DNA of 64,000 bases. Source: Candidatus Poribacteria bacterium. Lineage in GTDB: Bacteria; Poribacteria; WGA-4E; PCPOR2b. Position 1 is the first letter of the stretch. Each line of letters begins with the position of its first letter. The notes beneath the pieces are model-generated. The model was not told where the DNA came from. It made no database searches and saw nothing but the letters and a program-made list of their open reading frames with translations. The stretch spans positions 777,142 to 841,141 of the forward strand of contig OZ244825.1 in NCBI GenBank assembly GCA_965220385.1, written 5' to 3'. A program made the translations under genes and the position numbers. Positions 1-19,892 of the stretch are shown here, one piece after another.

Positions 1-768
1 CACCCACGCCTCAAACCTATGGGTCGTAGCGGACAGCACCAGATCCGCCTTGTCCAGCAGGGATTTGCGCCGCTCTGGAGAAAGTAGCATGTCCCATGCT
101 CCTGTCCGCGAATGCGCCGCCACTATGATGACGTCTCTGCTCCCTTTTTCGATTCCTTCAAGCGTGCCCATCATCCACACACGGCTGCTCTCTGGGAACG
201 CCACCGCATCATCCATAGGCTGATCTGAGAAGTGCATCTGGATCAGATGGACGGTGTAATCGCGGACCGGAATTTGCGCATAGTATTCTGAGCTGTTAGG
301 ACGGATAATGCTCGCGTGGGCTTCCAGCTTCACGAGATCGAGTATCGGCGCGCCTTCGCCGTAATCGGACTGTCTGTGGGTCGGGCTGTAGTATTCGTTC
401 TCACCGTCCGCGACGTTGGGGTAGAAGTGTTCACGCCACCAAGGCTCGGATTGCAGCCAAGGGATAAAGGTATTCTCGAAGCGATGTTTCACGTGGTCGC
501 CTAAACCTACCACAAAGGCGGGATTTCCCTCCTTCATCCAAGCGGTCATTCGAGCAAATTCCACACTACTGAGCGGCGAGTCCCCCTTGTGATCACTCAT
601 GAGGGCAAAGTGTAGATCTGCTATTCGGTCTAAATCCGCGATGGACGCAACGCCGGGTAGTCCATTCCCAACAGCCTCCTGTGGGTTAGCGCTCTCGGTA
701 TCTGTTATCTGTGAAGTCGCCCAAATCAGAAGGGTCAAGACAAGAAGCTGCCCCAGTCTGTCCTTCAT
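1..768 (-). CDS. Calcineurin-like metallophosphoesterase, 3' end outside the window; secreted (N-terminal signal peptide MKDRLGQLLVLTLLIWA)
   Basis: Manual reverse-complement translation from the ATG at 768 gives MKDRLGQLLVLTLLIWATSQ...GLGDHVKHRFENTFIPWLQSEPWWREHFYPNVADGENEYY with the GDH(V/X) phosphoesterase motif. The frame stays open to position 1; it is absent from the ORF track because it has no stop inside the window. Confidence 0.55.
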   Translation of the reverse strand, partial: MKDRLGQLLVLTLLIWATSQITDTESANPQEAVGNGLPGVASIADLDRIADLHFALMSDHKGDSPLSSVEFARMTAWMKEGNPAFVVGLGDHVKHRFENTFIPWLQSEPWWREHFYPNVADGENEYYSPTHRQSDYGEGAPILDLVKLEAHASIIRPNSSEYYAQIPVRDYTVHLIQMHFSDQPMDDAVAFPESSRVWMMGTLEGIEKGSRDVIIVAAHSRTGAWDMLLSPERRKSLLDKADLVLSATTHRFEAWV

Positions 769-786
769 CGTTGCTAATCCTCACTC

Positions 787-2046
787 TTACGCTTCCCAAA
801 TGGGCCAATCGGTTTCTTGGAGCCGCTTCCAGAGGCTATCGAATCGCTCACTTCCATCGTCCTCCCATTCGTCCAATCTGACACCGGGCGCGAAAGATTC
901 GTCTACCCCCTGCTTCATCAATCGTTCCGCCTGTTGTAGGCTTTGGTAATAGTGTTTCAAGCCGCCGGGGAGTGTGACGACGGAGATATGTCGAAGCCAC
1001 TCCGGCGCGGGCGTCTCGGAATAACGGCTGACAGCATTTTCATCCAATTCTACCCCCAACCCCGGTCCCTCTGGAACTCTCATAAATCCCCGCTGAACCG
1101 TATGCCCGTCCACAATCAGGTCATCTTCGTAGGTGTGGCTTGCCGTTACGCCCGGCAGCGTCGCTGTCGGCATCACCGCTCCCAAATGACAGGCGAACGC
1201 TGCGGTTATACCCGTCCCGACGTACTGTAACAGGATTGGGGTGTTCGCAGCGGCAAACGCCCAACTTGCTGCCAACGCACCCTTAATCGTTTCATGGCTG
1301 CACAGCGCACCATCGAAATCGCCTGCGCGAAGACCGACCCAAGGACCTGAGGGTTGACGCGATGCGCCCTCTTGGACAACACCGACACCGTGTAGGTAGA
1401 ACGGGATGCGGATCTCTTGATGCAGCCGCCGCCACCCTTCAACATCGTATGCGAAGATTGGCTCTTCAACACCCTTCACGATCGGAATCTTCTCCAGCTC
1501 TCGAAGGATGGGTAAGGCTTTCTCTACGTTGGTCAAGGCGCCGTTAAAATCAAACTCGACACGAAAGTCCGGCGGTGCAACCTCCTGCATTGCCTGCGAC
1601 TGTTCGACGATATCATAAAATGCTCTGGCTTTGCATTTGAGTCCACGATATCCGCGTTCAGCCGCGACCTGCACTTCAGCGGCGCTGTCTTCGGGCGACA
1701 TTGAGGGCATCCACCAACCCATCGACACCCACTGACGTACCTGCTGCCCCATCAACTTCCATGCCGGCAAGCCCAGATGTTTGCCCATCAGGTCATAGCA
1801 CGCCATGTCGAGGTTGAACCGCCCCTTCCCCATGACATGGTCGAACGGATTCGTGCCGATGTATGCGTCCAAGAGTTCCTGCTCGAAAACGGGACCGGGA
1901 TTCTCTCCCAGTCCAATCAAGCCGGTATCCGTATGGAATTTATAGACCGTTACCTGTTCGTTCAGTCCAAAATGGTAATATTGCTTGCGAATGCGTTCTT
2001 CGTAGGGGACCCGCAGGAGGATCGGTTCAATCGCGGTGATTTTCAT
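787..2046 (-). CDS. Enolase-superfamily enzyme (mandelate racemase/muconate lactonizing enzyme family, probably a sugar-acid dehydratase)
   Basis: 441 aa ORF; probable true start MKITAIEPILLRVPYEE. The N-terminal capping domain plus TIM-barrel pattern (KITAIEP...GLGE...) is typical of MR/MLE-family proteins. Confidence 0.7.
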   Translation of the reverse strand: MKITAIEPILLRVPYEERIRKQYYHFGLNEQVTVYKFHTDTGLIGLGENPGPVFEQELLDAYIGTNPFDHVMGKGRFNLDMACYDLMGKHLGLPAWKLMGQQVRQWVSMGWWMPSMSPEDSAAEVQVAAERGYRGLKCKARAFYDIVEQSQAMQEVAPPDFRVEFDFNGALTNVEKALPILRELEKIPIVKGVEEPIFAYDVEGWRRLHQEIRIPFYLHGVGVVQEGASRQPSGPWVGLRAGDFDGALCSHETIKGALAASWAFAAANTPILLQYVGTGITAAFACHLGAVMPTATLPGVTASHTYEDDLIVDGHTVQRGFMRVPEGPGLGVELDENAVSRYSETPAPEWLRHISVVTLPGGLKHYYQSLQQAERLMKQGVDESFAPGVRLDEWEDDGSERFDSLWKRLQETDWPIWEA

Positions 2047-2269
2047 AGGAGGTGTCCTTTCGTGGTGGGTTATCAACTCGCTCATGATAGCACAGATCTT
2101 GCTCTCAGACAATAGAAAGCGATAGGAATAACAAGCAGTACGTAGTGCGTAAGCAAGACATTTCTACGATATGACAGCGGTTGCGTAGATAATTCCTTAC
2201 GTATTACGTGTTACCCTTCCGAATATCGAGATAATCTATTTGAGGCACACGCGAGAAGGATATTGCAGC

Positions 2270-3019
2270 CTACCCAAACTGTTCTATCAAGAGTTGCGTA
2301 ATGGGATTGGGACGGCTGTAATAGTTCTGTGTGGCGTCGTCTTTACCTTCCCACAAACGGCGCGGAAAAATCGTGTGATTGCTGAGATATCGGTCTGTGG
2401 TACGACCACAGTAAATGTGAACGGTACGGCGTTCAGAGGTGGTCTGTCGGACATTCCCGGCGTGGAAGGTTGACGCGTTGAAGAGGATCGCTGTGCCGGC
2501 GGGACCGACGAGGTGCTGTGCCGCGCTGAGGTCATAAGCCTCAAGCGGGAATAATTCTGTGGATTGCGCGGTGCCGGGCAGGACGCTAAAGGTGTGCGTT
2601 GTGTCGTCTACATCCGTCAGATAAAATACCACCGATAGATAGCGCGTATAATATGGAAGTTCGGCATCCGCCCTATTCTCACGATTCGCATCGCGGTGCC
2701 AGCGGCATTCGGTATCGCCATCGGGGTTCGGCGCACGGAGCATCACCGAGTGCTCCTCTGCACAGATATCTTCTCCCATGATAGCGTTCATCAACGGCAG
2801 CAACGTCGGTGGGCGCATGGTCACGTCCATCTCCGGGCAGGCGAGTAGGGCGTGGACGTTCTGGCAACGTCCGCTCTGTCCACGGTCTATCCACATCACC
2901 GGATTCTCGACGAGGTCCCGATCTATCGCCTCATTGATAGATTGAACCTCCTCAATAGAAAGGGCATTGGGTACGACAAGATAACCGTTTTCCTTGAAAA
3001 ATTTTAACTGTTCTTTCAT
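2270..3019 (-). CDS. Phytanoyl-CoA dioxygenase (PhyH) family Fe(II)/2-oxoglutarate oxygenase
   Basis: 249 aa; N-terminus MKEQLKFFKENGYLVVPNALS is typical of the PhyH family, and the WHRD...H motif is present. Confidence 0.7.
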   Translation of the reverse strand: MKEQLKFFKENGYLVVPNALSIEEVQSINEAIDRDLVENPVMWIDRGQSGRCQNVHALLACPEMDVTMRPPTLLPLMNAIMGEDICAEEHSVMLRAPNPDGDTECRWHRDANRENRADAELPYYTRYLSVVFYLTDVDDTTHTFSVLPGTAQSTELFPLEAYDLSAAQHLVGPAGTAILFNASTFHAGNVRQTTSERRTVHIYCGRTTDRYLSNHTIFPRRLWEGKDDATQNYYSRPNPITQLLIEQFG

Positions 3020-3265
3020 TAGGTCTTTCCTCGCAATGTGTTAGGGGAGGCTAATTATATTGAGAATTATAGGAACGAGAAGGTGGATAGTCAAGCATAA
3101 AGGTCGAAATTCAGATTCTTGTTTTTGGATAGATGTGCTATAATTGAAACATAAATCTTTGCATCGTCAGGTCAAATTTTCTTGGTGAGACTTGGCCGGG
3201 ATTGCGTGATACTATGCTTGATGTATCTTAAGTTCTATTTGCCAAAATCGAAATCGGGGGATAGC

Positions 3266-4108
3266 ATGAATATCGTAGAACTCCTCAAACTCAGAGGATT
3301 GGATACGAAGAAATCAACTAAGATGATAAGACACACAGACCACGGCGATTATCTTATTAGTGAGATGACCAAAAAGGAATTAGAGATCTATCAACGATGC
3401 CAAGATAAAGGAGCTTTTAAGGGCCTGGATTATGTTGTTTCTTTTCGTGGACTTGAGCGGACGAAAGCAAAGTTCATCGGTGTGTATAAAGTCACAGATG
3501 AAAAACCGTTAACGCCTAGATTTTGCCCCAAGAACTATCGTTTTCGTAAAATCTTTGAAGGAGGTGGTTCTTTCTACGAATTGGAGAAAGTTTCTGGTTT
3601 TGAGGACTTGGAGGGCCGGGTTATTATCGAATGGGGGCAAGGAATGCAATGGGCTCAATGGCTTAGTAATGAGAAAGAGGTGTTTGAGATTCGACCTCCC
3701 GGTGCTGCCCAACCCTTTCCGGACTATCTGGACTTAATTCTGGAGTTTGATAGAATGCGCAAAATGGTTGATAACCCGGATTCTTGGCGAGAGTGGCACA
3801 CCATGTTATCAGTGGTTGCAGGGGTGTATCTGATAGTCGACACGAAAACAGGTAAACCATATGTTGGTTTAGCGCTTGGGGAAGATGGCATCATAGGCAG
3901 ATGGGCGCAATACGCTAAAAACGGTCATGGAGACAATGAAGGACTTAAGAAGCTATTGTGCAATCATGGCAGTACCTATGCTAATAACTTTTCTTTTAGT
4001 ATACTCGAGACACTTCCTAAAAACTGGACTGATCAGAAAATGAGAGAACGTGAAAAGGTATGGAAAGATAAACTGCGTTCAAGAGAATTTGGACTAAACC
4101 TGAATTGA
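3266..4108 (+). CDS. GIY-YIG nuclease-domain protein (C-terminal GIY-YIG, N-terminal domain of unknown function)
   Basis: C-terminal GVYLIVDTKTGKPYVGLA...R...E...N matches the GIY-YIG core. Start MNIVELLK is preceded by a GGGGGAT Shine-Dalgarno. Local GC is about 38% against about 55% for the surrounding sequence. Confidence 0.6.
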   Translation: MNIVELLKLRGLDTKKSTKMIRHTDHGDYLISEMTKKELEIYQRCQDKGAFKGLDYVVSFRGLERTKAKFIGVYKVTDEKPLTPRFCPKNYRFRKIFEGGGSFYELEKVSGFEDLEGRVIIEWGQGMQWAQWLSNEKEVFEIRPPGAAQPFPDYLDLILEFDRMRKMVDNPDSWREWHTMLSVVAGVYLIVDTKTGKPYVGLALGEDGIIGRWAQYAKNGHGDNEGLKKLLCNHGSTYANNFSFSILETLPKNWTDQKMREREKVWKDKLRSREFGLNLN

Positions 4109-4153
4109 TAACAACCTGTAAAATCACGCAAAAACCAATAGGAAAAAGATAAA

Positions 4154-4375
4154 ATGGCTAAATATTTCGCATCTGCTATAGACAAACCGGGGCTTAAACC
4201 TTACGAAATCGCACAATCTTCTGTAGGTCGATTTTCCAAAATCGACGTTTCTGGGTCGAGGTATGTATCTCAATCTATGCCGTTCCGAGGACTCCGACGA
4301 ATCGTTCCGAGGGTCGACATATGCGAGGCGAAAACTCTCGGGACCGAGTACATAAATCGAACCCTTTTCAAATAA
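4154..4375 (+). pseudogene. Duplicated 5' fragment of the downstream gene (first 19 codons MAKYFASAIDKPGLKPYEI identical), then diverges
   Basis: Nucleotides 4154-4210 are an exact 57 bp direct repeat of 4522-4578. Confidence 0.35.
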
Positions 4376-4521
4376 ATGTCAACATGCCCTAAGCATATTA
4401 CTTGGAATCCTATTCGCAGCCGCAGGACAGTGTAGTCGGTATATGGAATACGTGAAGCGTGAATCTTCAAAAAGCGTGAATCTTCAAATCAACCAATGAA
4501 CTAATGGACTCATACACTAAT

Positions 4522-4836
4522 ATGGCTAAATATTTCGCATCTGCTATAGACAAACCGGGGCTTAAACCTTACGAAATCTCACGGACGCTGCGCGGGCAGC
4601 TTCACTACTTCACCGAAGGTGCCAGCGCCCACCAATGGGAACATAGCGGCGATCCAAATGCGTTTTTCTTTCCGCTCGACCTGACCACCGAACTGTTTGA
4701 CGAAGGCGTGTTCTACGTGACCTCCCCGTTGGACGATCAGAACCAAGCCGAAATTGAGATCACGGAAGAACAGGAAGACTTTTTGGAATGGCTCATCTCG
4801 AATGAAGTTGAGCAGGTAAAGGTTTCGGAAGTGTAA
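4522..4836 (+). CDS. Hypothetical acidic protein
   Basis: ORF begins MAKYFASAIDKPGLKPYEISRTLRGQLHYFTEG...; I recognise no domain. Confidence 0.45.
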   Translation: MAKYFASAIDKPGLKPYEISRTLRGQLHYFTEGASAHQWEHSGDPNAFFFPLDLTTELFDEGVFYVTSPLDDQNQAEIEITEEQEDFLEWLISNEVEQVKVSEV

Positions 4837-4892
4837 CGTGATGCGTAAATTGGTTCATTAATGAGCAAATGAACCAAGGACAGGAGTTTCAG

Positions 4893-5723
4893 ATGACCGT
4901 CACCCCAAACAGTATTAATCAGATGCAAGTAGTCCCTACCGGCGGCTCCCTTGGGGCGGAAATCCAGGGGCTAAACCTTGTGCATCCCTTGCCCGAAGAC
5001 ACGGTTCAGGGGCTACACCACGCGCTGCTATCGCACGCTGTCCTACTCTTTCGTGGACAGCAGATTAGCGACGAGGACCAAGTACGGTTCACCAACTACT
5101 TCGGTCAGGCGGTCGAGCATGTCCGCAAGCAGATGCCGCGCCCAGTCAAAGAGATCTTCTTCGTCTCCAATGTCGAAAAGGACGGTCAACCCATAGGCGC
5201 ACTCGGCAACGACGAGATCCCCTTCCACTCCGATCTATCATATCTGCGGAAACCCGGAACGCTCTCCATAATCTACGCGGTCGAACTTCCTTCCACCGGC
5301 GGTGCCACGCAGTGGTGCAACTGCTACGCTGCCTATGAGGCACTTGATCCCGACCTCAAGGCACGGCTCAAAGGGATGCGCGCTGTCCATCGCCATCACG
5401 TCGAAAGCCAGAACCCCCCAGAACTGATTGACCATCCGGTTGTTTGTACCCACCCCGAAACCGGGCGCAAAGCGCTCTACGTCGGTCCCCACCTGACTCG
5501 ACATATCGTCGGCGTTAGCGAATCGGAGAGCCGTGCGCTGCTTGGAACACTCTTCGATCATATGTCGCAGGAACGGTTTGTCTGGACGCACGATTGGAAA
5601 ATTGGTGACCTGATTATATGGGACAACCGCTGTACCATGCATCGGCGAGCAGGGTTCCCACCGGATGAGCGACGAATAATGAAACGGACACAGATTTTCA
5701 ACGACGCAATCCCGTATGAGTAA
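4893..5723 (+). CDS. TauD/TfdA-family Fe(II)/alpha-ketoglutarate-dependent dioxygenase
   Basis: Contains IPFHSDLSY (HxD) and a downstream His; length and order match taurine dioxygenase-like enzymes. An AGGACAGGAG Shine-Dalgarno precedes the ATG at 4893. Confidence 0.75.
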   Translation: MTVTPNSINQMQVVPTGGSLGAEIQGLNLVHPLPEDTVQGLHHALLSHAVLLFRGQQISDEDQVRFTNYFGQAVEHVRKQMPRPVKEIFFVSNVEKDGQPIGALGNDEIPFHSDLSYLRKPGTLSIIYAVELPSTGGATQWCNCYAAYEALDPDLKARLKGMRAVHRHHVESQNPPELIDHPVVCTHPETGRKALYVGPHLTRHIVGVSESESRALLGTLFDHMSQERFVWTHDWKIGDLIIWDNRCTMHRRAGFPPDERRIMKRTQIFNDAIPYE

Positions 5724-5951
5724 GAATGAAACGTGATGCGTGAAACGTGAAGATCGGAAGATGACCCGTCCTAAAGTCGTAAACACATTCCGCTTCGCAA
5801 ATTAAGTGGGTCGTCGTATCGTGAACAAAGCTATGACCCGGTAGGTGCGGTTTCTAACCGCACCGAATCCCGACGAGTCGGAACAGGACATGAGGAGCAA
5901 AAGTGTCTATAAGTGGGTCGTCGTATCGTAAACAAAGGTAAGGAAGAGACA

Positions 5952-7688
5952 GTGAAAAACACTCGATTTCTGCTCTCTGCTCTGGTTGATTTTCCGGATG
6001 ACTGCAATCGTTTGGTCTTTACACCCGGCCTGGTAGAAAACCTGATAGATCGCCTCCACTGGATGGGCGTCCGTCGGGTGTACTGGAACTATTACCAAAA
6101 AGGGATGTGGGACAATTTCGCCGACAACTCGGACGCGACTCGCCAGACCCTTGCGAATTTGGGAGAACCCCTAACTGTTGGCTGCCGTCTGGCGCATGAG
6201 CGAGGGATGGAATTCTACGCCACCATCAAGCCCTACGAAACCGGCGCAAGTCACGCCAATCCCAAAGATAGCCCTGAGATGATGGCTGTGCCCGGCTTGC
6301 CATGTATCGGTGGGGTCTGCAAGGTTGATCCGTGGGTCATGGCGCATCCGGAGATGCGGGTGCGAGGACGCAGCGCGGACGTACCCATGGGACTGGAGAA
6401 CGTCCCAATTGAGCGCATCCAACTCCGCCAAAAAGACATGGCGCCCGTCCGTATCGCACCAGAAAACATCGAAATCTGGACGAGTGACGATAATAACGGC
6501 TACCGAAAGCAGGACCTGACCTTTGCGGTGACCGAATCTGTTGAAACCTGTCCACGGGATGTCTTTGAGCTTGACGGCGACCCAGTCACGTCCCAAGGGG
6601 AATCGGTGCGAGCCCTCAACCTGAGTGGACTGAATCTGCTCGATCCGTTTATTGCGATCACCACCAATTTTGAGGACAGAGATGGCAGCTTCCGCAATAC
6701 CGCGATGGAGATGGTGCGGGCATTTGGTCCCAGCGGTCAGCCGATACCGATTGTCGTCGCCAGTCACAAGGCGGTTTGGAGACCCGTACGAGACTTCCGC
6801 ACAGGTGACCTTGAGTACGATGCAGGACTCGGCGATGCCATCGTTTGTCTTGATGTTAACAACCAACCTGTAGTCCCATCAGATACGTCCGCGAGTGACT
6901 CCAACGACGGGGTGATTGCGGTCGCGAGGGGACGAAACGAGTATTTCTCCGGTTCGCTCTGTGAAGCGTATCCGGAGGTACAATCGTACTGGTTGGGTTG
7001 GGTCGGCGAGTGCATTGCGGCGGGTGTTGACGGATTGGACGTTCGCATCTCCTGCCATAGTAGCTGGACAAATACGCCGGAGATCTACGGTTTCAATGAA
7101 CCTGTGACGGGGGAGTACCAGCGGCGATACGGTATCAATCCGGACGTGGAACCGTACGACCCAGCGTTGGTCGGGGCATTGCGCGGCGAATTCTTCGATC
7201 AGTTCCTGCGCGCAACAAAGCGGCGCCTGTCCGCAGCCGGTAAACGGATGCAGGTTCATGCGGAGATGGAATCGTTCCGGTCCGACGCCTGTCAGGGGCG
7301 CTGGCGCACCCGTCCCGGCAACATCACGTTTAACTGGCGAAGTTGGCTACATACCGGGCTAGCGGACGAAGCCACACTATTTGGACGTGGTTGGATGCCC
7401 GACCAAATGCTCAACGACGCACTCACGTTGGAGATGCTGCGGGAAGCTGCTGATACCGATGTGCCCGTGCATTTGAGCAAAGCGGTCGGACATAGCCGCG
7501 ACGGACGGGTACACGCTGATCTGTTGGAGTATATCTACCGTTTCGGTGGACTCACCGGATACACGCTCTATGAGACCGCGGCGATGTATGATGGGCAGCA
7601 GCTTGGGGCTGACGGTCAGCTACAGTTCCACCCGGGGCTGTGCGAGGGGATACGTGACCGTGTTAGAACTTTGGGGCTCATAGATTAA
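5952..7688 (+). CDS. Hypothetical protein (possibly a glycoside-hydrolase-like TIM barrel)
   Basis: Long ORF with coding-like composition. GTG start after an AAGGAAG Shine-Dalgarno is preferred over the ATG at 5913, which lies inside an intergenic repeat. No confident family assignment. Confidence 0.45.
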   Translation: MKNTRFLLSALVDFPDDCNRLVFTPGLVENLIDRLHWMGVRRVYWNYYQKGMWDNFADNSDATRQTLANLGEPLTVGCRLAHERGMEFYATIKPYETGASHANPKDSPEMMAVPGLPCIGGVCKVDPWVMAHPEMRVRGRSADVPMGLENVPIERIQLRQKDMAPVRIAPENIEIWTSDDNNGYRKQDLTFAVTESVETCPRDVFELDGDPVTSQGESVRALNLSGLNLLDPFIAITTNFEDRDGSFRNTAMEMVRAFGPSGQPIPIVVASHKAVWRPVRDFRTGDLEYDAGLGDAIVCLDVNNQPVVPSDTSASDSNDGVIAVARGRNEYFSGSLCEAYPEVQSYWLGWVGECIAAGVDGLDVRISCHSSWTNTPEIYGFNEPVTGEYQRRYGINPDVEPYDPALVGALRGEFFDQFLRATKRRLSAAGKRMQVHAEMESFRSDACQGRWRTRPGNITFNWRSWLHTGLADEATLFGRGWMPDQMLNDALTLEMLREAADTDVPVHLSKAVGHSRDGRVHADLLEYIYRFGGLTGYTLYETAAMYDGQQLGADGQLQFHPGLCEGIRDRVRTLGLID

Positions 7689-10560: not shown

Positions 10561-10622
10561 CAATCTCGTACAGGTAGCGCCGGTATCTCCACTGTCGAAA
10601 CAAAAATAAAGGAGGAATACTC

Positions 10623-12047
10623 ATGAAGATCCCAAGAGACGATAAGGTTCGTATGCTTAGATTTGCCGTACAGTTTTTGCCAGCGATGATACCTCTTTTT
10701 TTCTCCTTGTATTTCTGGAAAAAGGGGTGGACTGAGCCTGTCATAACCTTTATGTTGCTAAGTATTGGACTGATATTATTAGGGGGCTTTCTGATTCTAG
10801 TCAAGAGGATCATAGGCAACGATAGGTATTTTGTGGTTATAGGTGGCGCTCTGCTTATTCTGATAGGGTTGTATTGCTGGATAGGCAGCGGTAATATCTA
10901 TACGAGCATATTTGCTGTATTGGTCGGTATGGCTGTAATATTAGGGGAGATGTTAAAAGAAAAGCGGTGGCAGATTAGTATCACTGTTGCATTAGTGCTC
11001 GCTGTAGGCACTATCATCTATCTGGAAGAAACCAGTGAAGATAAAGGACATGCTGTCGACAGCGAGGGGGGCGTACAGCAGGAGGTCGTGGATAAAGCAT
11101 CGGCACCCAGCGATGTTCCAAGCGGTGAACCCGCAGTTTCGGCTACATCCGAACAGTCGATGACTGATATGATGAATCGGTTCTTAACTCCTGAGCAACG
11201 TGAAAATCCAACATTCCAGAAAGTAATGAAGGTTATGGAGTCCGATTCATTTCAGAAGCAGATGCAGGAACAAGATCTGCGGACACCGCAAGAATTTATT
11301 GACCTCATGGCAGCACATGGATTAACGGAGTTTGCAGAGATAGATTATGATAAAATCATGGCTGATGCCTATGCCCTTTCCGCACAACAATACGCTACCG
11401 CAAACCCCGGTAAAGACCCCGCGGACGACGATGAGGTAATGGCAAAACGAATCGGAGAAAGCCTGAAGACCGCCGATCCTGTATATGGCATAATGGAAAT
11501 TATGCAGGATCGCGAGATTGCTCTGTGGATGAGTGCCCGTTTCAAAGGGGACCAAGCTGCGATGAGTGAGTGGTTGATGCCGGTGATGAAAGGCGCCGTA
11601 TCGGCTGACTCTGCAAATTCGTCGTCCGCACCAATGGATTTTGAATTCCCCGACGGGTTTTTGTCCGATAGCCCTCCTGACGAACCCACAGAGCAGCTCC
11701 CTTTCGTAGAATCGGAACCCTTACTATCTGACCCCAGCCCGACATCAACGCGGAAAGAGCCTTCCATCCCCGACACCGAAAAGAGTTCCGCAGCAGCACC
11801 AACGGTTGAACCGGAAAAGATTCTCACTGAACTGTCTCCAGAACCGCCTGCACTCCCTACGGACGAGGAACTTGAAACGGCGTTAAGGGAACGATTTTCG
11901 CCTGAGCGTTTCGAGCGGGCAATGACAACGTTGGAGCGGTATGGACCGGAAGAGGGACTTCGCCGCCTTCGAGAGGCTGATCCGGAAATCGCCAAGCAGA
12001 TGGAACGGCGCCGCAGTAGAGAAGGTGGAGAGCAGGATTCCCGATGA
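10623..12047 (+). CDS. Polytopic membrane protein with a long acidic disordered C-terminal region ending in a conserved EEGLRRLREADPE motif
   Basis: N-terminal hydrophobic helices; the C-terminal RYGPEEGLRRLREADPEIAKQ matches the C-terminus of the 13418 protein (YGTEEGLRRLRVSDPDAARQ). Confidence 0.5.
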   Translation: MKIPRDDKVRMLRFAVQFLPAMIPLFFSLYFWKKGWTEPVITFMLLSIGLILLGGFLILVKRIIGNDRYFVVIGGALLILIGLYCWIGSGNIYTSIFAVLVGMAVILGEMLKEKRWQISITVALVLAVGTIIYLEETSEDKGHAVDSEGGVQQEVVDKASAPSDVPSGEPAVSATSEQSMTDMMNRFLTPEQRENPTFQKVMKVMESDSFQKQMQEQDLRTPQEFIDLMAAHGLTEFAEIDYDKIMADAYALSAQQYATANPGKDPADDDEVMAKRIGESLKTADPVYGIMEIMQDREIALWMSARFKGDQAAMSEWLMPVMKGAVSADSANSSSAPMDFEFPDGFLSDSPPDEPTEQLPFVESEPLLSDPSPTSTRKEPSIPDTEKSSAAAPTVEPEKILTELSPEPPALPTDEELETALRERFSPERFERAMTTLERYGPEEGLRRLREADPEIAKQMERRRSREGGEQDSR

Positions 12048-12068
12048 AAGGGAGAAGGAGATTCAGTT

Positions 12069-12446
12069 ATGCCATTTGGAGAAAAGGTGCGCGAGTATAT
12101 CCTCAGGAACGTCGGGAAGTTGGGGATCGGTTGTGGGATAGGGATGATTTTGATGGGAGCGTATATTCTGATAATAGCGAGCAATGCAGGCAGGGGGTCT
12201 ATCTTTCATCCGGGCGCGGGCTATGTCCTACTGGGTATAAGTTTCATCACCATGAATCTCTTAGAGTGGAAGCCGTTGCTGATGCTTACCTGCACTGTGG
12301 TTGCGCTTGGACTCGCGCTGTTGCTACTCGTATTCAAGCCCGGAGATGAAACCGCTGAGCGCGCGGCGGTTGTGCAGCAGGAGGCTGTGGAAGCAGCGTC
12401 AAAGCCCAATGGAGTGCTAGATGACGCGGCGTCTCTTACGCGGTAG
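12069..12446 (+). CDS. Small integral membrane protein (3 predicted TM helices)
   Basis: An AAGGAG Shine-Dalgarno precedes the ATG; hydrophobic segments; stop lies in the conserved ...TR-TAG-GG context that precedes U element 1. Confidence 0.4.
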   Translation: MPFGEKVREYILRNVGKLGIGCGIGMILMGAYILIIASNAGRGSIFHPGAGYVLLGISFITMNLLEWKPLLMLTCTVVALGLALLLLVFKPGDETAERAAVVQQEAVEAASKPNGVLDDAASLTR

Positions 12447-12454
12447 GGAGAGCA

Positions 12455-12620
12455 TCTTCAATCAATACAGCTAGCGGTATCATACTCTTGTTTACGGGCA
12501 TAATATCGCTTTTTTGTGCTCACAAAACGCCACCCTTCGATTGCCTATGATGTGAGTCGGTTAAAACGATTCAAAACCTCCGCATCTTTTTCGTGGAATA
12601 TGGTAAATCAATAAGGGACT
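12455..12620 (+). promoter_or_regulatory. U element copy 1: hairpin/T-run terminator followed by a conserved about 100 bp module ending in an extended -10-like TGGTAAAT (degenerate copy)
   Basis: Aligns to the copies at 14436, 18122 and 20062: AGCGGTATCATAC...ATGATACCGCTTTTTTTGTGCTCAC...CAAAACCTCCCCATCTTTTTATCGGAATATGGTATAATCACGCA. Confidence 0.6.
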
Positions 12621-12667
12621 ATGTGTGCTTCGTACGGTTTTTTAGGGAACAGCGCCGTGTGCGATAA

Positions 12668-12820
12668 TGTTAGTAAAAGTTACTAACATTAGTAACATTT
12701 GCTAGCAATAGTTACTAATAACCGAGTTATTTCCTTCAACGACTTTTTAGACATTTCGCGCTTGAAGCCTGATGCCCACTGGGTTTGTGCGATTTTCGTT
12801 TCTTTTGGCATGTTAATTGC
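12668..12820 (+). promoter_or_regulatory. Sigma-54 promoter unit 1: UAS of TTAGTAA/TTACTAA palindromes (12668-12720) plus -24/-12 element TGGCATGTTAATTGCT (12805-12820)
   Basis: GG and GC spaced exactly as in the TGGCAC-N5-TTGC consensus. UAS palindromes sit about 100 bp upstream, the classic enhancer-binding-protein geometry. The unit is repeated at 16371-16523 and 18313-18451. Confidence 0.7.
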
Positions 12821-12995
12821 TTCTTATGGGTCTGTGGTTGAACACTTCAACCGTAACGCGTAGCGGAAAAGCATAGATTTTCAATGATTAGCTTATTCTC
12901 AAAGTGGGTGTGCTAAGACATTTTGTGAAGTTGAAAATCTTTCCTTTCTGGCCAGAATGCTAAACGCATTCTTAACAATTCAAAGGAAAAAGCAC

Positions 12996-13322
12996 ATGAA
13001 AAACTTAGGGGTTCTCTTCTGCGCCATTTCACTCGTCATGATGATCGGCCTAATGGTCGTATTTTTTACGGAACCCGCTGAAGCAGGAGCAGACGAGAAG
13101 ATAAGGGTAAAAAATGTTGTAAAATATTACGATGACTTTGACAATTACTGCCCTAACCTTTCATACACTAGAATCACCCTTGAACCAGTTGTATACAATG
13201 GATATGGTCACTACTATAACTACCATATAATGGGTAACTCGGGACACACTAGTCACAGTTATCAGATCGTGTCATGGGTCACCATTCATACAACTTTTAC
13301 CGTTGCTAGTTGTAATACTTAA
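12996..13322 (+). CDS. Small secreted/membrane-anchored protein (N-terminal signal/TM; Tyr/His/Asn-rich C-terminal half, 2 Cys)
   Basis: MKNLGVLFCAISLVMMIGLMVVFF signal-like N-terminus; first gene downstream of sigma-54 promoter 1. Confidence 0.45.
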   Translation: MKNLGVLFCAISLVMMIGLMVVFFTEPAEAGADEKIRVKNVVKYYDDFDNYCPNLSYTRITLEPVVYNGYGHYYNYHIMGNSGHTSHSYQIVSWVTIHTTFTVASCNT

Positions 13323-13417
13323 GCATCGTTAGAAAACTAGGCAGCCCAGCCTCTACTCGTGTCTCCGTAGGGGCTGGCAAAAAAACAGTTAAGCGATTCA
13401 GAAGGGACGGTATTTTG

Positions 13418-14422
13418 ATGCGAAAGGTTGTTCTATTGATCTCCGTGATAGTTATTCTAACAGCAGGCTGGATTTTCTACCTAAACCGGGAAAAAAAGAA
13501 CTTTATAGAGAATCTACCGCAATCCCCTGCGGTTGTTAACCAACCTATTAACAGTTCCTCTTCATCAGTAAATGAAAAGGAGGATTCTAGCTACTTTGTT
13601 GAAGTGGATGGGAAGAAATTCATTCCTGATGGCCGCCTGCATAAGACACTTCCACAGGAGCAGACCGCCTCCGCAGAAAAAACGTCTTCAGAAACGCCCA
13701 CTCCAGACGAGAAAGCAGATTTTGTGCGCGACCAATGGATTCAAATGTTTGGAGACATTCCACAGGTTCATGCCGCATCTGAGTACATGAGAAAAATATA
13801 CAAACGGGAACGTATGACAATTGATGAAGAGATTGCTGGCTTAGAAGCCTCACACTACCTATTTCCAGAGGGTGGGCATGGACTAATGTTGGCAATACGA
13901 AAGACTCAGAAAGCACAGGGGCTCGACGAGGACGACTTTGAGATCGTGTATGAGGAGGATTGGGAGAATGTAAGGCCTCCGCCGGGTTATAAGGAATATC
14001 ATTTTGGGAATGTACCTGAGCATCTCCGGTCCGATACCCCTGCACCTGATAGGATTTTTTCAGAAAGCATTGATGGAGATATAGACTTTCCTCCTGCTCG
14101 TTCTGAGGGGACTCCTGTAATGCCGGAACCTAAGACCTCAGTCACGTCTGACCATGTTCACCATGGAGATAGGCATGTACACGAACCGCCCACCCTCCAA
14201 CCGCCTGCACCGACAACTGCTAAAGGTGTTGAAGCGAACGGCTGGGAGGGGTTATCGTCTAAACAACGGGAGCAGGCGAAAGCGTTCTTTGACGAATATG
14301 GCACAGAGGAAGGGCTGCGGCGGTTGAGGGTGTCTGATCCTGACGCTGCGCGTCAATTTGGGCAGGAACGGCAGAAACCGCCTATCCCTTCCGAACCAAA
14401 TGATGAATCTTCTACGCAGTAG
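13418..14422 (+). CDS. Single-pass membrane-anchored protein with a disordered Pro/Glu-rich region and C-terminal EEGLRRLR...DP motif (paralogous at the C-terminus to the 10623 protein)
   Basis: N-terminal TM VVLLISVIVILTAGWIFYL; C-terminal FFDEYGTEEGLRRLRVSDPDAARQF. Confidence 0.5.
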   Translation: MRKVVLLISVIVILTAGWIFYLNREKKNFIENLPQSPAVVNQPINSSSSSVNEKEDSSYFVEVDGKKFIPDGRLHKTLPQEQTASAEKTSSETPTPDEKADFVRDQWIQMFGDIPQVHAASEYMRKIYKRERMTIDEEIAGLEASHYLFPEGGHGLMLAIRKTQKAQGLDEDDFEIVYEEDWENVRPPPGYKEYHFGNVPEHLRSDTPAPDRIFSESIDGDIDFPPARSEGTPVMPEPKTSVTSDHVHHGDRHVHEPPTLQPPAPTTAKGVEANGWEGLSSKQREQAKAFFDEYGTEEGLRRLRVSDPDAARQFGQERQKPPIPSEPNDESSTQ

Positions 14423-16523: not shown

Positions 16524-16656
16524 CCCTTATGAGTTTGTGGTTGAACCTTTCAACCATGATAAAGGATTTTCGATAGGTAGCGATTTGAATTATGAGTACA
16601 CAAGCATTGTATTGTGCAAATCGTAACACCACACACTTAATGAGAGGAGAGATACG

Positions 16657-17421
16657 ATGAAAACCATATTTGACGTGCTTCGTCACCCGCTGGTTATCGG
16701 TGCACTCGTATTGAGCATCCTCATTGTGGTAGGTGTGTATTTCGGAAGCCATTGGTACTATGGTGATGTTGAACCAGTTGAAATGCCGGAGGTTTCTGCA
16801 CCTGCTCCGCCCCTGCCTAAAAATCTTTCCGTCTCTGAAGTTGATTTGAGTGGTCTGGATGGGGAATCATCCCCACCGCAAACGGAATCAGAGCCTACAG
16901 TTTCGTCTGTGGAAGGCGAGTCGGTCGATGATTTCTTGGCAGAGCTATCGGATGAGGAGATGGCTCTGTTGACAGCTGAGGTGGTGGAACCTCAACGGGT
17001 TTCTCCCTTTGGCTTTGGTCCATATCCCCAAGTACCTTCAGATTTTCCCGAAGATCCCATTTGGGAAGAAGATATGGAAGCAAATATCTCACAATTTGGC
17101 AGCGAAGCGATGAAGGAAGCAGAATTGATGGATCGGGTTTTAATTCAACTCTGGAATCAGGGACATCGTGCTACTTCTGCGTCAAAGCACAGTAACGGGC
17201 TCGTCTATCCATCATTTCCCAACACGGTCTTTGTCCGATGGGACTACATAGAGGAAGAAGATGGGACAATTACTAAATATGCAAGGAGAATATCTAGTGG
17301 TGCGGAGGTATCAGATAGTGACCTTAATGATTTAGGGGAAGGGATTATTCCGCCCGGCATAAAGGTGCTTGACTATGATTCAGATGGAATAAATCCCTAC
17401 ACTTTTTTGAATCTTAACTAA
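16657..17421 (+). CDS. Single-pass membrane-anchored protein, family A (N-terminal TM, Pro/Ser/Glu-rich linker, conserved about 140 aa C-terminal domain ending PYTFLNLN)
   Basis: 77% paralog of the 18587 protein; GAGGAGAG Shine-Dalgarno; no recognisable domain. Confidence 0.6.
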   Translation: MKTIFDVLRHPLVIGALVLSILIVVGVYFGSHWYYGDVEPVEMPEVSAPAPPLPKNLSVSEVDLSGLDGESSPPQTESEPTVSSVEGESVDDFLAELSDEEMALLTAEVVEPQRVSPFGFGPYPQVPSDFPEDPIWEEDMEANISQFGSEAMKEAELMDRVLIQLWNQGHRATSASKHSNGLVYPSFPNTVFVRWDYIEEEDGTITKYARRISSGAEVSDSDLNDLGEGIIPPGIKVLDYDSDGINPYTFLNLN

Positions 17422-17435
17422 TAAGGAGAAATAAG

Positions 17436-17804
17436 ATGCGTAAACATTTTTTGGGTGTCTTGATAATCTGCTTTTTGTCTGTTTTTTCCGTGCTTTCTTT
17501 TGCAAAAAAATCCGGGCCGCTAACAGCTGAAGCTTCTATATACAAAAAACGAACACAGACAGTAGCCAAGGCGAAGGTTCAGGCGACAGTTGCAGCAAGG
17601 CATGGGGCGTGGGCAATATCCGCTGTCTCAGGGAATAACTCTGATGGCGATGCTGGACACTATCGATACGGACTATCTACCCAAGTTGTACACCCAAAAG
17701 ATTACACCTCACGCGCGTCAAATGCGAGGGCTAGCGCGTGGATTTCTGGACACGATCGGCATGGCAAGGCTTGGTTTGTACAAGATTCAAAACCTGACAA
17801 CTAG
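17436..17804 (+). CDS. Small secreted protein, family B (Sec signal peptide; mature about 95 aa with ...ASAWISGHDRHG... motif)
   Basis: MRKHFLGVLIICFLSVFSVLSFA signal peptide; TAAGGAG Shine-Dalgarno; homologous to the 19369 protein (shared NSDxD...TS.A.A.(A/S)WI(S/T)G(H/Y)(D/N)RH). Confidence 0.55.
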   Translation: MRKHFLGVLIICFLSVFSVLSFAKKSGPLTAEASIYKKRTQTVAKAKVQATVAARHGAWAISAVSGNNSDGDAGHYRYGLSTQVVHPKDYTSRASNARASAWISGHDRHGKAWFVQDSKPDN

Positions 17805-18121
17805 TATTTGGTGTTCGCAGACGTTTAACAGACCGGGGGTGTACCTTCAGATTTGAGGATATGCCCTCTTTTTTATGCTCCGTTTGCTCTAAACTTAATC
17901 AGCAGTTTTCCGAGGATACCAGCAATATCACGCGATAGCAGCATACCAGATTCTATAGCGCAATCTTCCGGACTGATTGAGCTAGGATTACTGCGCTACA
18001 GTCCGGGTATTTTCAGTTCACTAGAGACTCTAGCATAACGTGCTGGGTATTTGCGATTGGCGATCTGAAGGGGAACGACGCGAGTCGCTTGTTCATTCCG
18101 GTACGCAGTAGGGTAAACGTC

Positions 18122-18265
18122 TTCAATTAACACAACTAGCGGTATCATATCTTTTTTAGGGTTATGATACCGCTCTTTTGTGCTCACGGCGTGGCGTGAG
18201 TCAGCTAAAGCACCTCAAAACCTCCCCATCTTTTTATCGGAATACGGTATAATTACCAGGCTGCT
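18122..18265 (+). promoter_or_regulatory. U element copy 3
   Basis: AGCGGTATCATATC...GTTATGATACCGCTCTTTTGTGCTCACGGCGTGGCGTGAGTCAGCTAAAGCACCTCAAAACCTCCCCATCTTTTTATCGGAATACGGTATAAT. Confidence 0.65.
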
Positions 18266-18312
18266 ACTCGTGCTTCATGCGGCTTTCCAGAAACATCGGT
18301 GTGTGCAGAAAA

Positions 18313-18451
18313 GTTAGTAATTGTTGCTAACATTAGCAACAGTTGCTAATAATTGGGTTAACCGCTTCGGCGACTTTTTGCATATTTCGCCTTGAAAGCC
18401 TGATGTCCGCTGGGTTTGTGCGATTTTCGTTTCTTTTGGCATGTTAATTGC
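18313..18451 (+). promoter_or_regulatory. Sigma-54 promoter unit 3: UAS palindromes (18313-18350) plus -24/-12 TGGCATGTTAATTGC (18437-18451)
   Basis: About 95% identical to unit 2 over roughly 280 bp, including the long leader. Confidence 0.75.
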
Positions 18452-18586
18452 TTCTTATGAGTCTGTGGTTGAACCCTTCAACCATGATAAAGGATTTTCG
18501 ATAGGTAGCGATTTGAATTATAAGTACACAAGCACTGTACCGTGTAATTTCTAACACTGTACACTTAAATGAGAGGAGAGCGTACG

Positions 18587-19357: not shown

Positions 19358-19368
19358 GGAGAAATAAA

Positions 19369-19767: not shown

Positions 19768-19892
19768 TTCATCTGCAAAGCACGGACTGTTGACATTTTG
19801 TGCTTGAGATTTGTATAGTAACAGCGATTTCGCCGGAGTAGGCTTGTTAGGTATTGCTTAACAAGTTCAAGTTTTTTACAAACCCATATCAT

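What the first reader, a model, noticed from the sequence alone, without database searches (positions are those of the whole stretch)
3020..4580. Low-GC GIY-YIG nuclease gene island flanked by a 57 bp direct repeat of the downstream gene's 5' end
A roughly 1.5 kb segment at about 38% GC (flanks about 55%) carries a single gene with an unknown N-terminal domain and a C-terminal GIY-YIG nuclease domain. Immediately after it, nt 4154-4210 duplicate exactly the first 57 nt (start codon onward) of the next gene (4522-4578), giving a truncated decoy ORF. This is a footprint of insertion of a foreign element (homing-endonuclease-like or defence-island cargo) accompanied by target duplication or gene conversion. 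An AAGCGTGAATCTTCAAA tandem dyad (4456-4490) sits at the junction. Stand-alone C-terminal GIY-YIG proteins occur in several antiphage systems, so a defence role is possible.
Basis: partly seen in the sequence, partly recalled or inferred. Interest (0 to 1): 0.6.

Follow-up and report, generated by a model that had tools for sequence, protein, structure and literature searches.

The report
Uzume defence gene with recombination scar
A sponge-symbiont (Poribacteria) chromosome carries a known single-gene anti-phage nuclease (Uzume/UzuA) in a slot it has long occupied in related species, and the 57-base duplicate after it is a local recombination scar, not a mark of the gene's insertion.

Summary
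The sequence facts hold. There is a 41.5% GC stretch, against 52% for the window. It holds one 280-aa gene (3266-4108) with a C-terminal GIY-YIG domain. An exact 57-nt copy of the next gene's 5' end lies at 4154-4210 and matches 4522-4578. A 17-nt unit is repeated twice at 4455-4488.

The geometry in the title is wrong. Both repeat copies lie downstream of the nuclease gene and bracket 311 nt of non-coding leader.

The gene is a full-length UzuA, the Uzume defence protein (PADLOC E 2.8e-85). It is 29% identical to the experimentally verified Bacillus UzuA.

The window is Candidatus Poribacteria. In 10 other Poribacteria loci uzuA sits in the same slot: conserved TGCTATAAT promoter, uzuA, about 45 nt, then the 104-aa gene. 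Synonymous divergence matches the flanks, so uzuA is an old resident, and its alleles are swapped between lineages by homologous recombination. The closest relative keeps the first 29 nt of uzuA and has lost the rest.

Only this genome has the duplicate. I read it as the scar of a misplaced crossover between a uzuA-bearing and a uzuA-less haplotype. The crossover lies next to a dispersed palindromic repeat.

This is an ordinary new member of a known family. Interest is low to moderate.

The parts
3066..3094 (-). Promoter-like site (TTGACT-17-TATAAT, 11 of 12) facing the PhyH-family dioxygenase gene (2270-3019, -)
   Evidence: Consensus scan. This is a consensus match only.
3136..3144 (+). Extended -10 promoter motif TGCTATAAT inside a conserved about 45-nt block. 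I infer it is the rightward promoter for uzuA and the small gene.
   Evidence: The motif is present exactly once between the PhyH gene and the small gene in all 19 Poribacteria loci examined. It lies 78-130 nt upstream of the small gene in short uzuA-less leaders and 130-844 nt upstream of uzuA where uzuA is present. It is also the left edge of a 1.4-kb zero-mismatch exchange tract between L027 and L030. Function is inferred.
3266..4108 (+). uzuA, the single gene of the Uzume anti-phage system (280 aa). Residues 1-183 form an N-terminal domain with no family assignment. Residues 186-280 (nt 3821-4105) form an I-TevI-type GIY-YIG nuclease domain.
   Evidence: PADLOC UzuA PDLC03973, E 2.8e-85, profile positions 3-278 of 278. 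29% identity (E 2e-39) to the verified Bacillus sp. FJAT-27231 UzuA and 38% identity over the full length to the B. cereus B4080 UzuA. The family profile hits I-TevI 1LN0/1MK0 at E 7.6e-5. AF2 model pLDDT 89, Foldseek to 1MK0 with probability 1.0. Y188, Y199, R212 and E263 are invariant and N278 is nearly invariant in 47 homologues. dN/dS is 0.2-0.45.
4137..4153 (+). Type-A ribosome-binding leader (ATAGGAAAAAGATAAA) of the small gene, in its native place after uzuA
   Evidence: It matches the sequence directly upstream of the small gene in L002-L007, L009, L010 and L014.
4154..4210 (+). Repeat copy 1: the first 57 nt (19 codons) of the small gene, in the native position 45 nt after the uzuA stop. 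It opens a 73-codon chimeric ORF (4154-4375) with no homologues.
   Evidence: Exact repeat. Window 3247-4215 is collinear with the uzuA-to-small-gene junctions of L003 and L004. The ORF has no Pfam, PADLOC or NCBIfam hit.
4218..4279 (+). Degenerate copy of a dispersed palindromic repeat of about 62 nt found in Poribacteria (CTGTAGGTCGATTTTCCAAAATCGAC...TCGACCTACAG). It starts 4-7 nt after copy 1.
   Evidence: Other copies lie in L003, L004, L015 and L024-L030. Intact copies fold as strong hairpins (z -4 to -6), while the window copy is weak (z -1.8). The L015 deletion (window 3295-4216) ends 1 nt before it.
4281..4302 (+). 22-nt insertion relative to L015, bounded by the direct repeat CGTTCCGAGG (slippage-type indel)
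   Evidence: Pairwise alignment.
4414..4521 (+). Type-B leader of the small gene, as found directly upstream of it in uzuA-less relatives. It includes the 17-nt tandem duplication at 4455-4488.
   Evidence: Homology to L001, L008, L011-L013 and L015. L015 and L001 carry one 17-nt unit.
4522..4836 (+). Intact 104-aa gene, a Poribacteria-specific conserved acidic protein of unknown function. Its first 57 nt (4522-4578) are repeat copy 2.
   Evidence: 40 homologue clusters, no Pfam hit, conserved motif GVFYVxSPLDDQNQAEIEITEEQEDFL. AF2 pLDDT 78 with no fold match in PDB. dN/dS is about 0.1. Synonymous sites in codons 1-19 are more conserved than in the rest of the gene.

Best explanation
**What the gene is.** The gene 3266-4108 is uzuA, the single gene of the Uzume anti-phage system.

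**Where it sits.** In Candidatus Poribacteria uzuA is a long-standing but dispensable resident of one fixed slot. That slot is the leader between a conserved rightward promoter block (TGCTATAAT, 3136-3144) and a conserved 104-aa gene. From there it is probably co-transcribed with that gene (inferred).

**How it moves.** uzuA alleles evolve fast at the protein level. They are swapped between lineages by homologous recombination anchored in the two conserved blocks on either side, the promoter block and the first about 57 nt of the small gene. In many lineages uzuA has been deleted.

**What the repeat is.** I infer that the 57-nt repeat is the scar of one such exchange that went wrong. A uzuA-bearing haplotype (uzuA, type-A leader, small gene) was joined after about nt 57-63 of the small gene to DNA of a uzuA-less haplotype. 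That DNA began inside its own leader, at the left end of a dispersed palindromic repeat (4217/4218). It continued through the type-B leader into an intact small gene. This is one illegitimate join plus one homologous anchor. The result is a dead 5' stub (copy 1, the 73-codon ORF) and the functional gene (copy 2).

**How UzuA most likely works (inferred).** The N-terminal domain senses an infection cue or a nucleic-acid feature. The I-TevI-like GIY-YIG domain then cuts DNA.
For: **Shown: family membership**
- Full-length UzuA HMM match, homology to the tested UzuA proteins, and an intact catalytic set.

**Shown: fixed slot**
- Same slot and same 44-48 nt spacing to the small gene in 11 loci, and absent in 12.
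- The promoter block is invariant in 19 loci.

**Shown: age and exchange**
- dS of uzuA between the window and L003/L004 is 0.63-0.65, against 0.60-0.69 for the flanks.
- The uzuA tree is incongruent with the flank tree.
- L027 and L030 share a 1.4-kb zero-mismatch tract. It runs from the promoter block through uzuA into the start of the small gene, while the adjacent PhyH gene differs by 9.5-11%.

**Shown: loss in the closest relative**
- L015 keeps the leader and uzuA nt 1-29 and lacks window 3295-4216.

**Shown: anatomy of the repeat**
- Copy 1 with its type-A leader is collinear with the native junction of L003/L004. Copy 2 is preceded by the type-B leader of uzuA-less relatives.
- The duplication occurs in only 1 of 24 loci.
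- The junction abuts a dispersed palindromic repeat.
- Divergence between the window and L015 steps from about 1% left of the L015 junction to about 5% right of it.
Against: - No uzuA-less haplotype carrying the exact 4217-4413 sequence without the uzuA remnant was found, so the proposed partner haplotype is hypothetical.
- The two copies are 57/57 identical and share derived bases (GGG and AAA) that L015 lacks. This requires a conspecific partner or later gene conversion.
- The L015 deletion ends within 2-6 nt of the end of copy 1. The model explains this only by chance (roughly 1-2%) or by fragility or a fixed DNA end at the palindromic repeat.
- Anti-phage activity is untested here. The subfamily closest to this protein (B. 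cereus B4080 type) showed no defence in the original screen.
- The persistent 40-42% GC of an old resident gene is not explained.
Confidence: 0.6

Rival explanations
1. uzuA in Poribacteria is a selfish free-standing homing-type GIY-YIG endonuclease gene. It cuts the empty leader allele and is copied in by double-strand-break repair, with co-conversion of the flanks. On this view the 57-nt duplicate and the shared 4217 breakpoint are imprecise repair scars at or near its cleavage site.
For: - The GIY-YIG domain is of the I-TevI type.
- It is a free-standing gene in an intergenic slot between conserved genes, with presence/absence polymorphism.
- The gene tree is incongruent with the flanks, and a sharp-edged identical tract is shared by diverged lineages.
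- The gene is persistently AT-rich.
- Two independent junctions (window and L015) share a breakpoint within a few nt.
Against: - The family was defined by anti-phage activity of a homologue.
- The nuclease domain is C-terminal, and the N-terminal domain matches none of the DNA-binding modules of GIY-YIG homing enzymes.
- All 11 alleles are intact, with dN/dS of 0.2-0.45 and dS as large as the flanks in some pairs. That means long-term maintenance, not an invade-and-decay cycle.
- Ordinary homologous recombination explains the exchange tracts equally well.
Confidence: 0.1
2. The two copies are attL and attR of a site-specific integrative element that targeted the 5' end of the small gene and carried a replacement 5' end. 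The 311 nt between them is what remains after internal deletion, or is a non-autonomous element.
For: - Direct repeats of 57-65 nt that rebuild the target gene's end are typical of integrase-mediated insertion.
- The type-B leader plus the new gene start could be element-derived.
- A mobile-looking palindromic repeat lies at the left inner edge.
Against: - There is no recombinase gene or any family-assignable ORF between or beside the copies.
- There is no tRNA or RNA gene.
- The type-B leader is the normal chromosomal leader in several uzuA-less species, where no second copy exists.
- The duplication occurs in only 1 of 24 loci.
Confidence: 0.07
3. The duplication arose locally in one chromosome, by replication template switching or hairpin-stimulated slippage at the palindromic repeat, without any second haplotype. 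On this view the leader between the copies was already present upstream.
For: - The same leader shows other small slippage events in this lineage: the 17-nt tandem and the 22-nt indel bounded by CGTTCCGAGG.
- The copies are perfectly identical.
- The palindromic repeat lies at the junction.
Against: - The sequence after copy 1 is not a copy of the sequence after copy 2, so this is not a simple tandem duplication.
- The two copies carry two different upstream leader types. Each type is found alone in other species. That pattern is what a join of two haplotypes predicts.
Confidence: 0.15
4. Assembly artefact: two strain haplotypes (uzuA-bearing and uzuA-less) were stitched together at the shared 57-mer.
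For: - The source is a metagenome-assembled chromosome.
- The structure is exactly a concatenation of two haplotype types at a shared exact repeat.
- The copy 1/leader junction sequence was not found in JGI metagenome contigs.
- None of the window's proteins could be retrieved from the contig index.
Against: - The identical UzuA protein is recorded on a single 6.35-Mb contig. That is typical of long-read assemblies, whose reads span 368 nt many times over.
- A stitch at the 57-mer would not create the copy 1 to 4217 junction, which lies outside the repeat.
- The independent short-read assembly L015 contains the same left edge of the leader at 4217, joined to a uzuA remnant.
Confidence: 0.05

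Closest known systems
Uzume (UzuA), single-gene anti-phage system of Millman et al. 2022 (bioRxiv 10.1101/2022.05.11.491447, Tables S2 and S16; PADLOC PDLC03973/PDLC03974)
   Same: - The two-domain architecture matches over the full length: an unassigned N-terminal domain of about 185 aa and a C-terminal GIY-YIG domain.
- The size is the same, 280 aa.
- The C-terminal motif FGLNLN is conserved.
- The HMM match has E 2.8e-85.
- It is a stand-alone gene.
   Different: - Identity to the one experimentally protective member (Bacillus sp. FJAT-27231) is only 29%. It is closer (38%) to the B. cereus B4080 member, which gave no defence in the screen.
- Here the gene is chromosomal, outside any defence island, and fixed in one syntenic slot of a sponge-symbiont phylum. 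In Bacillus, Klebsiella and Enterobacter homologues are often on plasmids (PMC11811056).
Free-standing GIY-YIG homing endonucleases (I-TevI and the Seg proteins of T4-like phages)
   Same: - The catalytic domain has the same fold and residues (30% identity to the I-TevI catalytic domain, Foldseek probability 1.0).
- It is an intergenic, dispensable gene between conserved genes, with patchy distribution and allele exchange together with flanking DNA.
   Different: - The domain order is reversed: the nuclease domain is C-terminal.
- There is no NUMOD, IENR1, zinc-finger or HTH DNA-binding module.
- It sits on a bacterial chromosome, not a phage genome.
- It has been maintained under purifying selection for a divergence as deep as its flanks.
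Other single-gene GIY-YIG defence proteins (PD-T4-3, PD-Lambda-1), listed together with Uzume in bioRxiv 10.1101/2024.10.26.620412
   Same: They are single-protein systems with a GIY-YIG nuclease as the presumed effector.
   Different: PADLOC gave no hit to those families, only UzuA and a weak generic homing-endonuclease model. The N-terminal domains are unrelated.
Homology-facilitated illegitimate recombination (one homologous anchor plus one illegitimate join, described for naturally transformable bacteria; from general knowledge)
   Same: It would produce what is seen here: foreign or variant DNA joined at a non-homologous point on one side and merged by homology on the other. A short duplication results when the illegitimate join falls inside the anchor region.
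   Different: Nothing is known about DNA uptake in Poribacteria. The event is inferred from one junction, and no microhomology is evident at 4214-4217.
REP/BIME-type dispersed palindromic repeats
   Same: It is an imperfect palindrome of about 62 nt. It is dispersed in intergenic DNA of several Poribacteria genomes and forms a strong hairpin.
   Different: No associated transposase was looked for or found. Only one degenerate copy lies in this 64-kb window. Its role at the junction is circumstantial.

Membership tests
Uzume / UzuA | Full-length match to the family profile | tested here: met
   PADLOC PDLC03973: E 2.8e-85, 284 bits, protein residues 1-280 on profile positions 3-278 of 278. The second UzuA model, PDLC03974, gave E 2e-44.
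Uzume / UzuA | Sequence homology to the experimentally tested UzuA proteins | tested here: met
   29% identity, E 2e-39, residues 18-280, to Bacillus sp. FJAT-27231 UzuA (defence observed). 38% identity, E 2e-59, over the full length, to B. cereus B4080 UzuA (no defence observed).
Uzume / UzuA | C-terminal GIY-YIG nuclease domain with an intact catalytic set | tested here: met
   The Pfam GIY-YIG hit is weak in this protein (E 0.0046, below the gathering score), but 44 of 47 family members match it. The family profile hits I-TevI at E 7.6e-5. Foldseek to 1MK0 has probability 1.0. Y188, Y199, R212 and E263 are invariant and N278 is nearly invariant.
Uzume / UzuA | Single-gene system with no obligatory partner | tested here: met
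   The 104-aa gene always follows uzuA in Poribacteria. However, it is also present in 12 loci without uzuA and in other contexts (L032-L037), and it is confined to Poribacteria, whereas UzuA is widespread. No PADLOC hits lie in the neighbouring 20 kb.
Uzume / UzuA | Protection against phage infection | not testable with these tools
   This needs expression and phage challenge. Only one family member is reported as protective.
GIY-YIG homing endonuclease (I-TevI / Seg type) | GIY-YIG catalytic domain of the I-TevI class | tested here: met
   (TIGR01453, E 2.4e-7, below cut-off).
GIY-YIG homing endonuclease (I-TevI / Seg type) | N-terminal nuclease domain linked to a C-terminal sequence-specific DNA-binding module (NUMOD, IENR1, zinc finger or HTH) | tested here: not met
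   The nuclease domain is C-terminal. Residues 1-183 match no such Pfam module in any of 47 members and no PDB sequence. The only fold resemblance is a weak one to ASCH/PUA-like domains (probability 0.72, E 0.12).
GIY-YIG homing endonuclease (I-TevI / Seg type) | Fixed insertion site with endonuclease-plus and endonuclease-minus alleles, and spread with flanking co-conversion | tested here: inconclusive
   The fixed slot and the plus/minus alleles are shown. An identical 1.4-kb tract is shared by diverged lineages. However, dS equals the flanks in other pairs, and plain homologous recombination explains the same data.
GIY-YIG homing endonuclease (I-TevI / Seg type) | Cleavage of the endonuclease-minus allele | not testable with these tools
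   A biochemical assay is needed.
Integrase-mediated genomic island with att duplication | Direct repeats bracket the cargo, and a recombinase gene lies inside or beside it | tested here: not met
   Both copies lie downstream of uzuA and bracket 311 nt without a family-assignable ORF. There is no tRNA or RNA gene.
Transposon or insertion sequence with target-site duplication | Short target duplication (2-15 bp), terminal inverted repeats and a transposase | tested here: not met
   The repeat is 57-65 nt. No inverted repeats lie at 4211/4521. No transposase is present.

The most novel reading that the evidence does not exclude
The Poribacteria uzuA is not, or not only, a defence gene. On this reading it is an active free-standing homing-type GIY-YIG element that targets the promoter-proximal leader of the 104-aa gene. 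The 57-nt duplicate in the window and the deletion in L015 end within a few nt of each other at position 4217, beside a dispersed palindromic repeat. They would then be repair scars at its cleavage or recombination hot spot. This would tie the Uzume 'defence' family mechanistically to homing endonucleases. A related open point is that the N-terminal domain may be a PUA/ASCH-like reader, which would make UzuA a modification-sensing nuclease.
Probability: 0.1. Interest if true: 0.6.

Novelty: new member of a known kind. Interest (0 to 1): 0.25.

Why it matters
- It places a Uzume-family gene in Candidatus Poribacteria, an uncultured sponge-symbiont phylum.
- It shows how a single defence gene can persist for a long time in one promoter-proximal slot. 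The gene is repeatedly deleted, and alleles are swapped between species through two short conserved anchor sequences.
- The window preserves a rare failed or intermediate product of that exchange, and the closest relative preserves a deletion product.
- This is useful as a worked example of defence-gene turnover without mobile-element machinery. It does not reveal a new system or mechanism.
- Low GC here is a poor clock for recent acquisition. All alleles stay at 40-42% GC despite flank-level synonymous divergence.

Tried and rejected
**Searches that returned nothing**
- Exact-protein look-ups of the window's UzuA, TauD, small gene, chimeric ORF and P0001 in the contig index were all 'not on record'. 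The source contig could therefore not be fetched.
- An exact search for the copy 1/leader junction in JGI metagenome contigs gave 0 hits.
- The scan of metagenome contigs with the small-gene alignment returned only 6 distant loci without uzuA or the PhyH/TauD context.
- There is no tRNA, tmRNA or Rfam family in the window, so tRNA-linked integration is rejected.

**Structure and domain searches**
- The fold search for the small protein gave no meaningful match.

**Neighbourhood and other cargo**
- PADLOC and Pfam on neighbouring ORFs without family assignment gave nothing, so a defence island is rejected.
- ORFs in the leaders of other loci (L002, L004, L024) have no Pfam family, so there is no evidence that the slot holds other cargo.

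**Readings rejected**
- A simple tandem duplication is rejected because the sequences following the two copies are unrelated.
- The 26-nt similarity 3226-3251 / 4220-4245 (81%) was considered as an insertion boundary. It is rejected because L015 keeps both copies.

**Literature**
- No paper in the library describes a Uzume mechanism.
Full report
**1. The observation**

The stretch 3020-4521 lies between a PhyH-family dioxygenase gene (2270-3019, minus strand) and a 104-aa gene (4522-4836). A TauD-family gene (4869-5723) follows.

GC is 41.5% for 3020-4580 and 42.2% for the nuclease gene. The window mean is 52.2% and the flanking genes are 54-56%. Comparable low-GC stretches occur elsewhere in the window.

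The only gene in the stretch is 3266-4108 (280 aa). The conserved N-terminus of its homologues fixes the start at ATG 3266.

The 57-nt repeat 4154-4210 = 4522-4578 is exact and was never matched in shuffles. It extends to 65 nt with two mismatches. The 17-mer AAGCGTGAATCTTCAAA is a direct tandem pair at 4455-4488.

The title's geometry is wrong. Both copies lie downstream of the nuclease gene and bracket 311 nt of non-coding DNA.

**2. The gene**

PADLOC gives a full-length match to UzuA, the single protein of the Uzume system (E 2.8e-85, profile positions 3-278 of 278).

Table S2 of Millman et al. (bioRxiv 10.1101/2022.05.11.491447) lists two tested UzuA proteins. The Bacillus sp. FJAT-27231 protein showed defence, and the window protein is 29% identical to it (E 2e-39). 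The B. cereus B4080 protein showed no defence, and the window protein is 38% identical to it over the full length (E 2e-59).

Several lines place the C-terminal domain with the homing endonuclease I-TevI:
- A profile of 47 homologues hits the catalytic domain of I-TevI (E 7.6e-5).
- An AlphaFold model (pLDDT 89) superposes on it with probability 1.0.
- Y188, Y199, R212 and E263 are invariant and N278 is nearly invariant.

The N-terminal 183 residues have no Pfam or PDB sequence relative. They show only a weak fold resemblance to ASCH/PUA-like domains (probability 0.72, E 0.12), which I treat as a lead and not a result.

The literature held here describes Uzume as a single-gene GIY-YIG system of unknown mechanism (10.1101/2024.10.26.620412; PMC12926258).

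Homologues occur on 420 plasmid records and a few phage records.

**3. The organism and the slot**

Relatives of the TauD gene place the window in Candidatus Poribacteria. The synteny enolase-family gene, PhyH, leader, 104-aa gene, TauD, GFO-family gene is conserved in 15 species-level genomes.

uzuA is present at the same place in the window, L003, L004 and the loci of three further UzuA clusters (L024-L031). Its stop codon is always 44-48 nt before the start of the small gene. It is absent from 12 loci.

Every locus has exactly one copy of an invariant TGCTATAAT motif inside a conserved block (window 3136-3144). This block lies 78-130 nt upstream of the small gene in the short uzuA-less leaders, and upstream of uzuA where uzuA is present. 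I infer that this is the promoter of a rightward operon and that uzuA rides on it.

Nothing within 20 kb matches a defence family, so this is not a defence island.

**4. Age and exchange**

Synonymous divergence of uzuA between the window and L003/L004 is 0.63-0.65. That is the same as for PhyH, TauD and the small gene (0.36-0.69). dN/dS is 0.2-0.45 for uzuA against about 0.1 for the flanks. The gene is therefore an old resident that changes fast at the protein level, not a recent arrival.

All alleles nevertheless stay at 40-42% GC against 54-55% in the flanks.

The uzuA tree disagrees with the flank tree. L027 and L030 share a 1.4-kb tract without a single mismatch. It starts sharply at the promoter block and fades out in the small gene, while the adjacent PhyH gene differs by 9.5-11%. 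So uzuA cassettes are exchanged between lineages by homologous recombination, anchored in the promoter block and in the 5' end of the small gene.

The first 19 codons of the small gene are exactly the duplicated part. They are unusually conserved at synonymous sites (majority-codon share 0.90-0.94, against 0.77-0.86 elsewhere).

**5. The closest relative**

L015 is 2.6% different in PhyH plus TauD. It has the whole left leader and the first 29 nt of uzuA. It then lacks window 3295-4216 and continues with 4217 onward, that is, the leader between the copies and the small gene. L015 has therefore lost uzuA and is not an empty target site.

Mismatch density between the window and L015 is 0.4-1.6% from 2501 to 3294. 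It is 4.4-5.2% from 4251 to 4750. The L015 junction is thus also a step in divergence.

**6. The duplicate**

Copy 1, with its type-A ribosome-binding leader, is collinear with the native uzuA-to-small-gene junction of L003 and L004.

Copy 2 is preceded by a different, type-B leader. That leader is the normal one in the uzuA-less genomes L001, L008, L011-L013 and L015.

Between the copies lie three segments:
- a degenerate copy of a dispersed palindromic repeat of about 62 nt (4218-4279; other copies in L003, L004, L015 and L024-L030; intact copies fold with z -4 to -6);
- a lineage-specific segment (4280-4413);
- the type-B leader (4414-4521).

Only the window, of 24 loci, has two copies.

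The structure is what a join of a uzuA-bearing haplotype (up to nt 57-63 of the small gene) to a uzuA-less haplotype (from the left end of the palindromic repeat onward) would give. That join needs one illegitimate junction and one homologous anchor. I consider this the most likely origin, with probability about 0.55-0.6.

Two points remain unexplained by this model:
- The two copies are identical and share bases that L015 lacks. This needs a conspecific partner or gene conversion.
- The L015 deletion ends 2-6 nt from the end of copy 1. This is either chance or a sign that the end of the palindromic repeat is a preferred breakpoint.

**7. Rivals**

| Rival | Probability |
|---|---|
| Homing-type selfish element | 0.1 |
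| Remnant of site-specific integration | 0.07 |
| Purely local template switching | 0.15 |
| Assembly chimera | 0.05 |

The evidence for and against each is given in the rival section. The chimera is unlikely for three reasons. The junction at 4214-4217 lies outside the shared 57-mer. The independent assembly L015 has the same leader edge. The source contig is 6.35 Mb.

**8. Verdict**

This is a new member of a known defence family in a little-studied phylum, sitting in an old, recombination-prone slot. The duplicate is a small recombination scar of local interest.

Noticed in passing
window 4218-4279; L015:4280-4350 (-); L004:17488-17560; L003:6284-6352; L024:8032-8095; L025-L030: A dispersed palindromic repeat of about 62 nt is found in Poribacteria genomes (CTGTAGGTCGATTTTCCAAAATCGAC...GTCGAGATGTGAATCTCGACCTACAG). 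Intact copies form strong hairpins. The 5' leader and start of uzuA (window 3236-3275) also resemble the variant seen in L024.
   Followed up: partly
window 3100-3145 and the equivalent block in 18 loci: A conserved block of about 45 nt ends in an invariant TGCTATAAT (extended -10). It is present once in every Poribacteria locus between the PhyH gene and the small gene. It is also the sharp left edge of an inter-lineage exchange tract (L027 vs L030).
   Followed up: partly
window 4522-4578 (codons 1-19 of the 104-aa gene): Synonymous sites of the first 19 codons are markedly more conserved across species than the rest of the gene. The drop falls exactly where the duplicated segment ends. It could reflect a translation-initiation constraint, an RNA element, or repeated recombination tracts ending there.
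   Followed up: partly
window 4490-4521 and the equivalent in L008, L011, L012, L015: The type-B leader just upstream of the small gene consists of about four 8-nt units (CTAATGAA / CTAATGGA / CTAATATG). This is a short periodic motif without an obvious Shine-Dalgarno sequence.
   Followed up: no
window 5913-7688: The 591-aa ORF between the TauD and GFO-family genes has no Pfam domain precomputed for its homologue and no PADLOC hit. It is present in some Poribacteria loci and absent in others (absent in L007, L010, L024-L026, L028-L030). This is a second presence/absence polymorphism in the same neighbourhood.
   Followed up: no
window 10600-14400 and 16600-19800: Lower-GC stretches (down to 39.5% near 12.5 kb) hold ORFs without any Pfam or PADLOC match. 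Alignment with the closest relative L015 breaks down from about 12.5 kb onward, so this is a strain-variable region.
   Followed up: partly
L025:10648-11975 and L029:10738-11867: IS630-type transposase genes (DDE_3 plus HTH_32) are inserted downstream of the HpcH-family gene in some strains that carry the same uzuA allele. Sister contigs lack them.
   Followed up: no
L031:6001-7224: The UzuA cluster representative P0013 is called as 407 aa because an upstream start was chosen. The homologous part begins at about 6382, so the extension is probably a gene-calling artefact.
   Followed up: no
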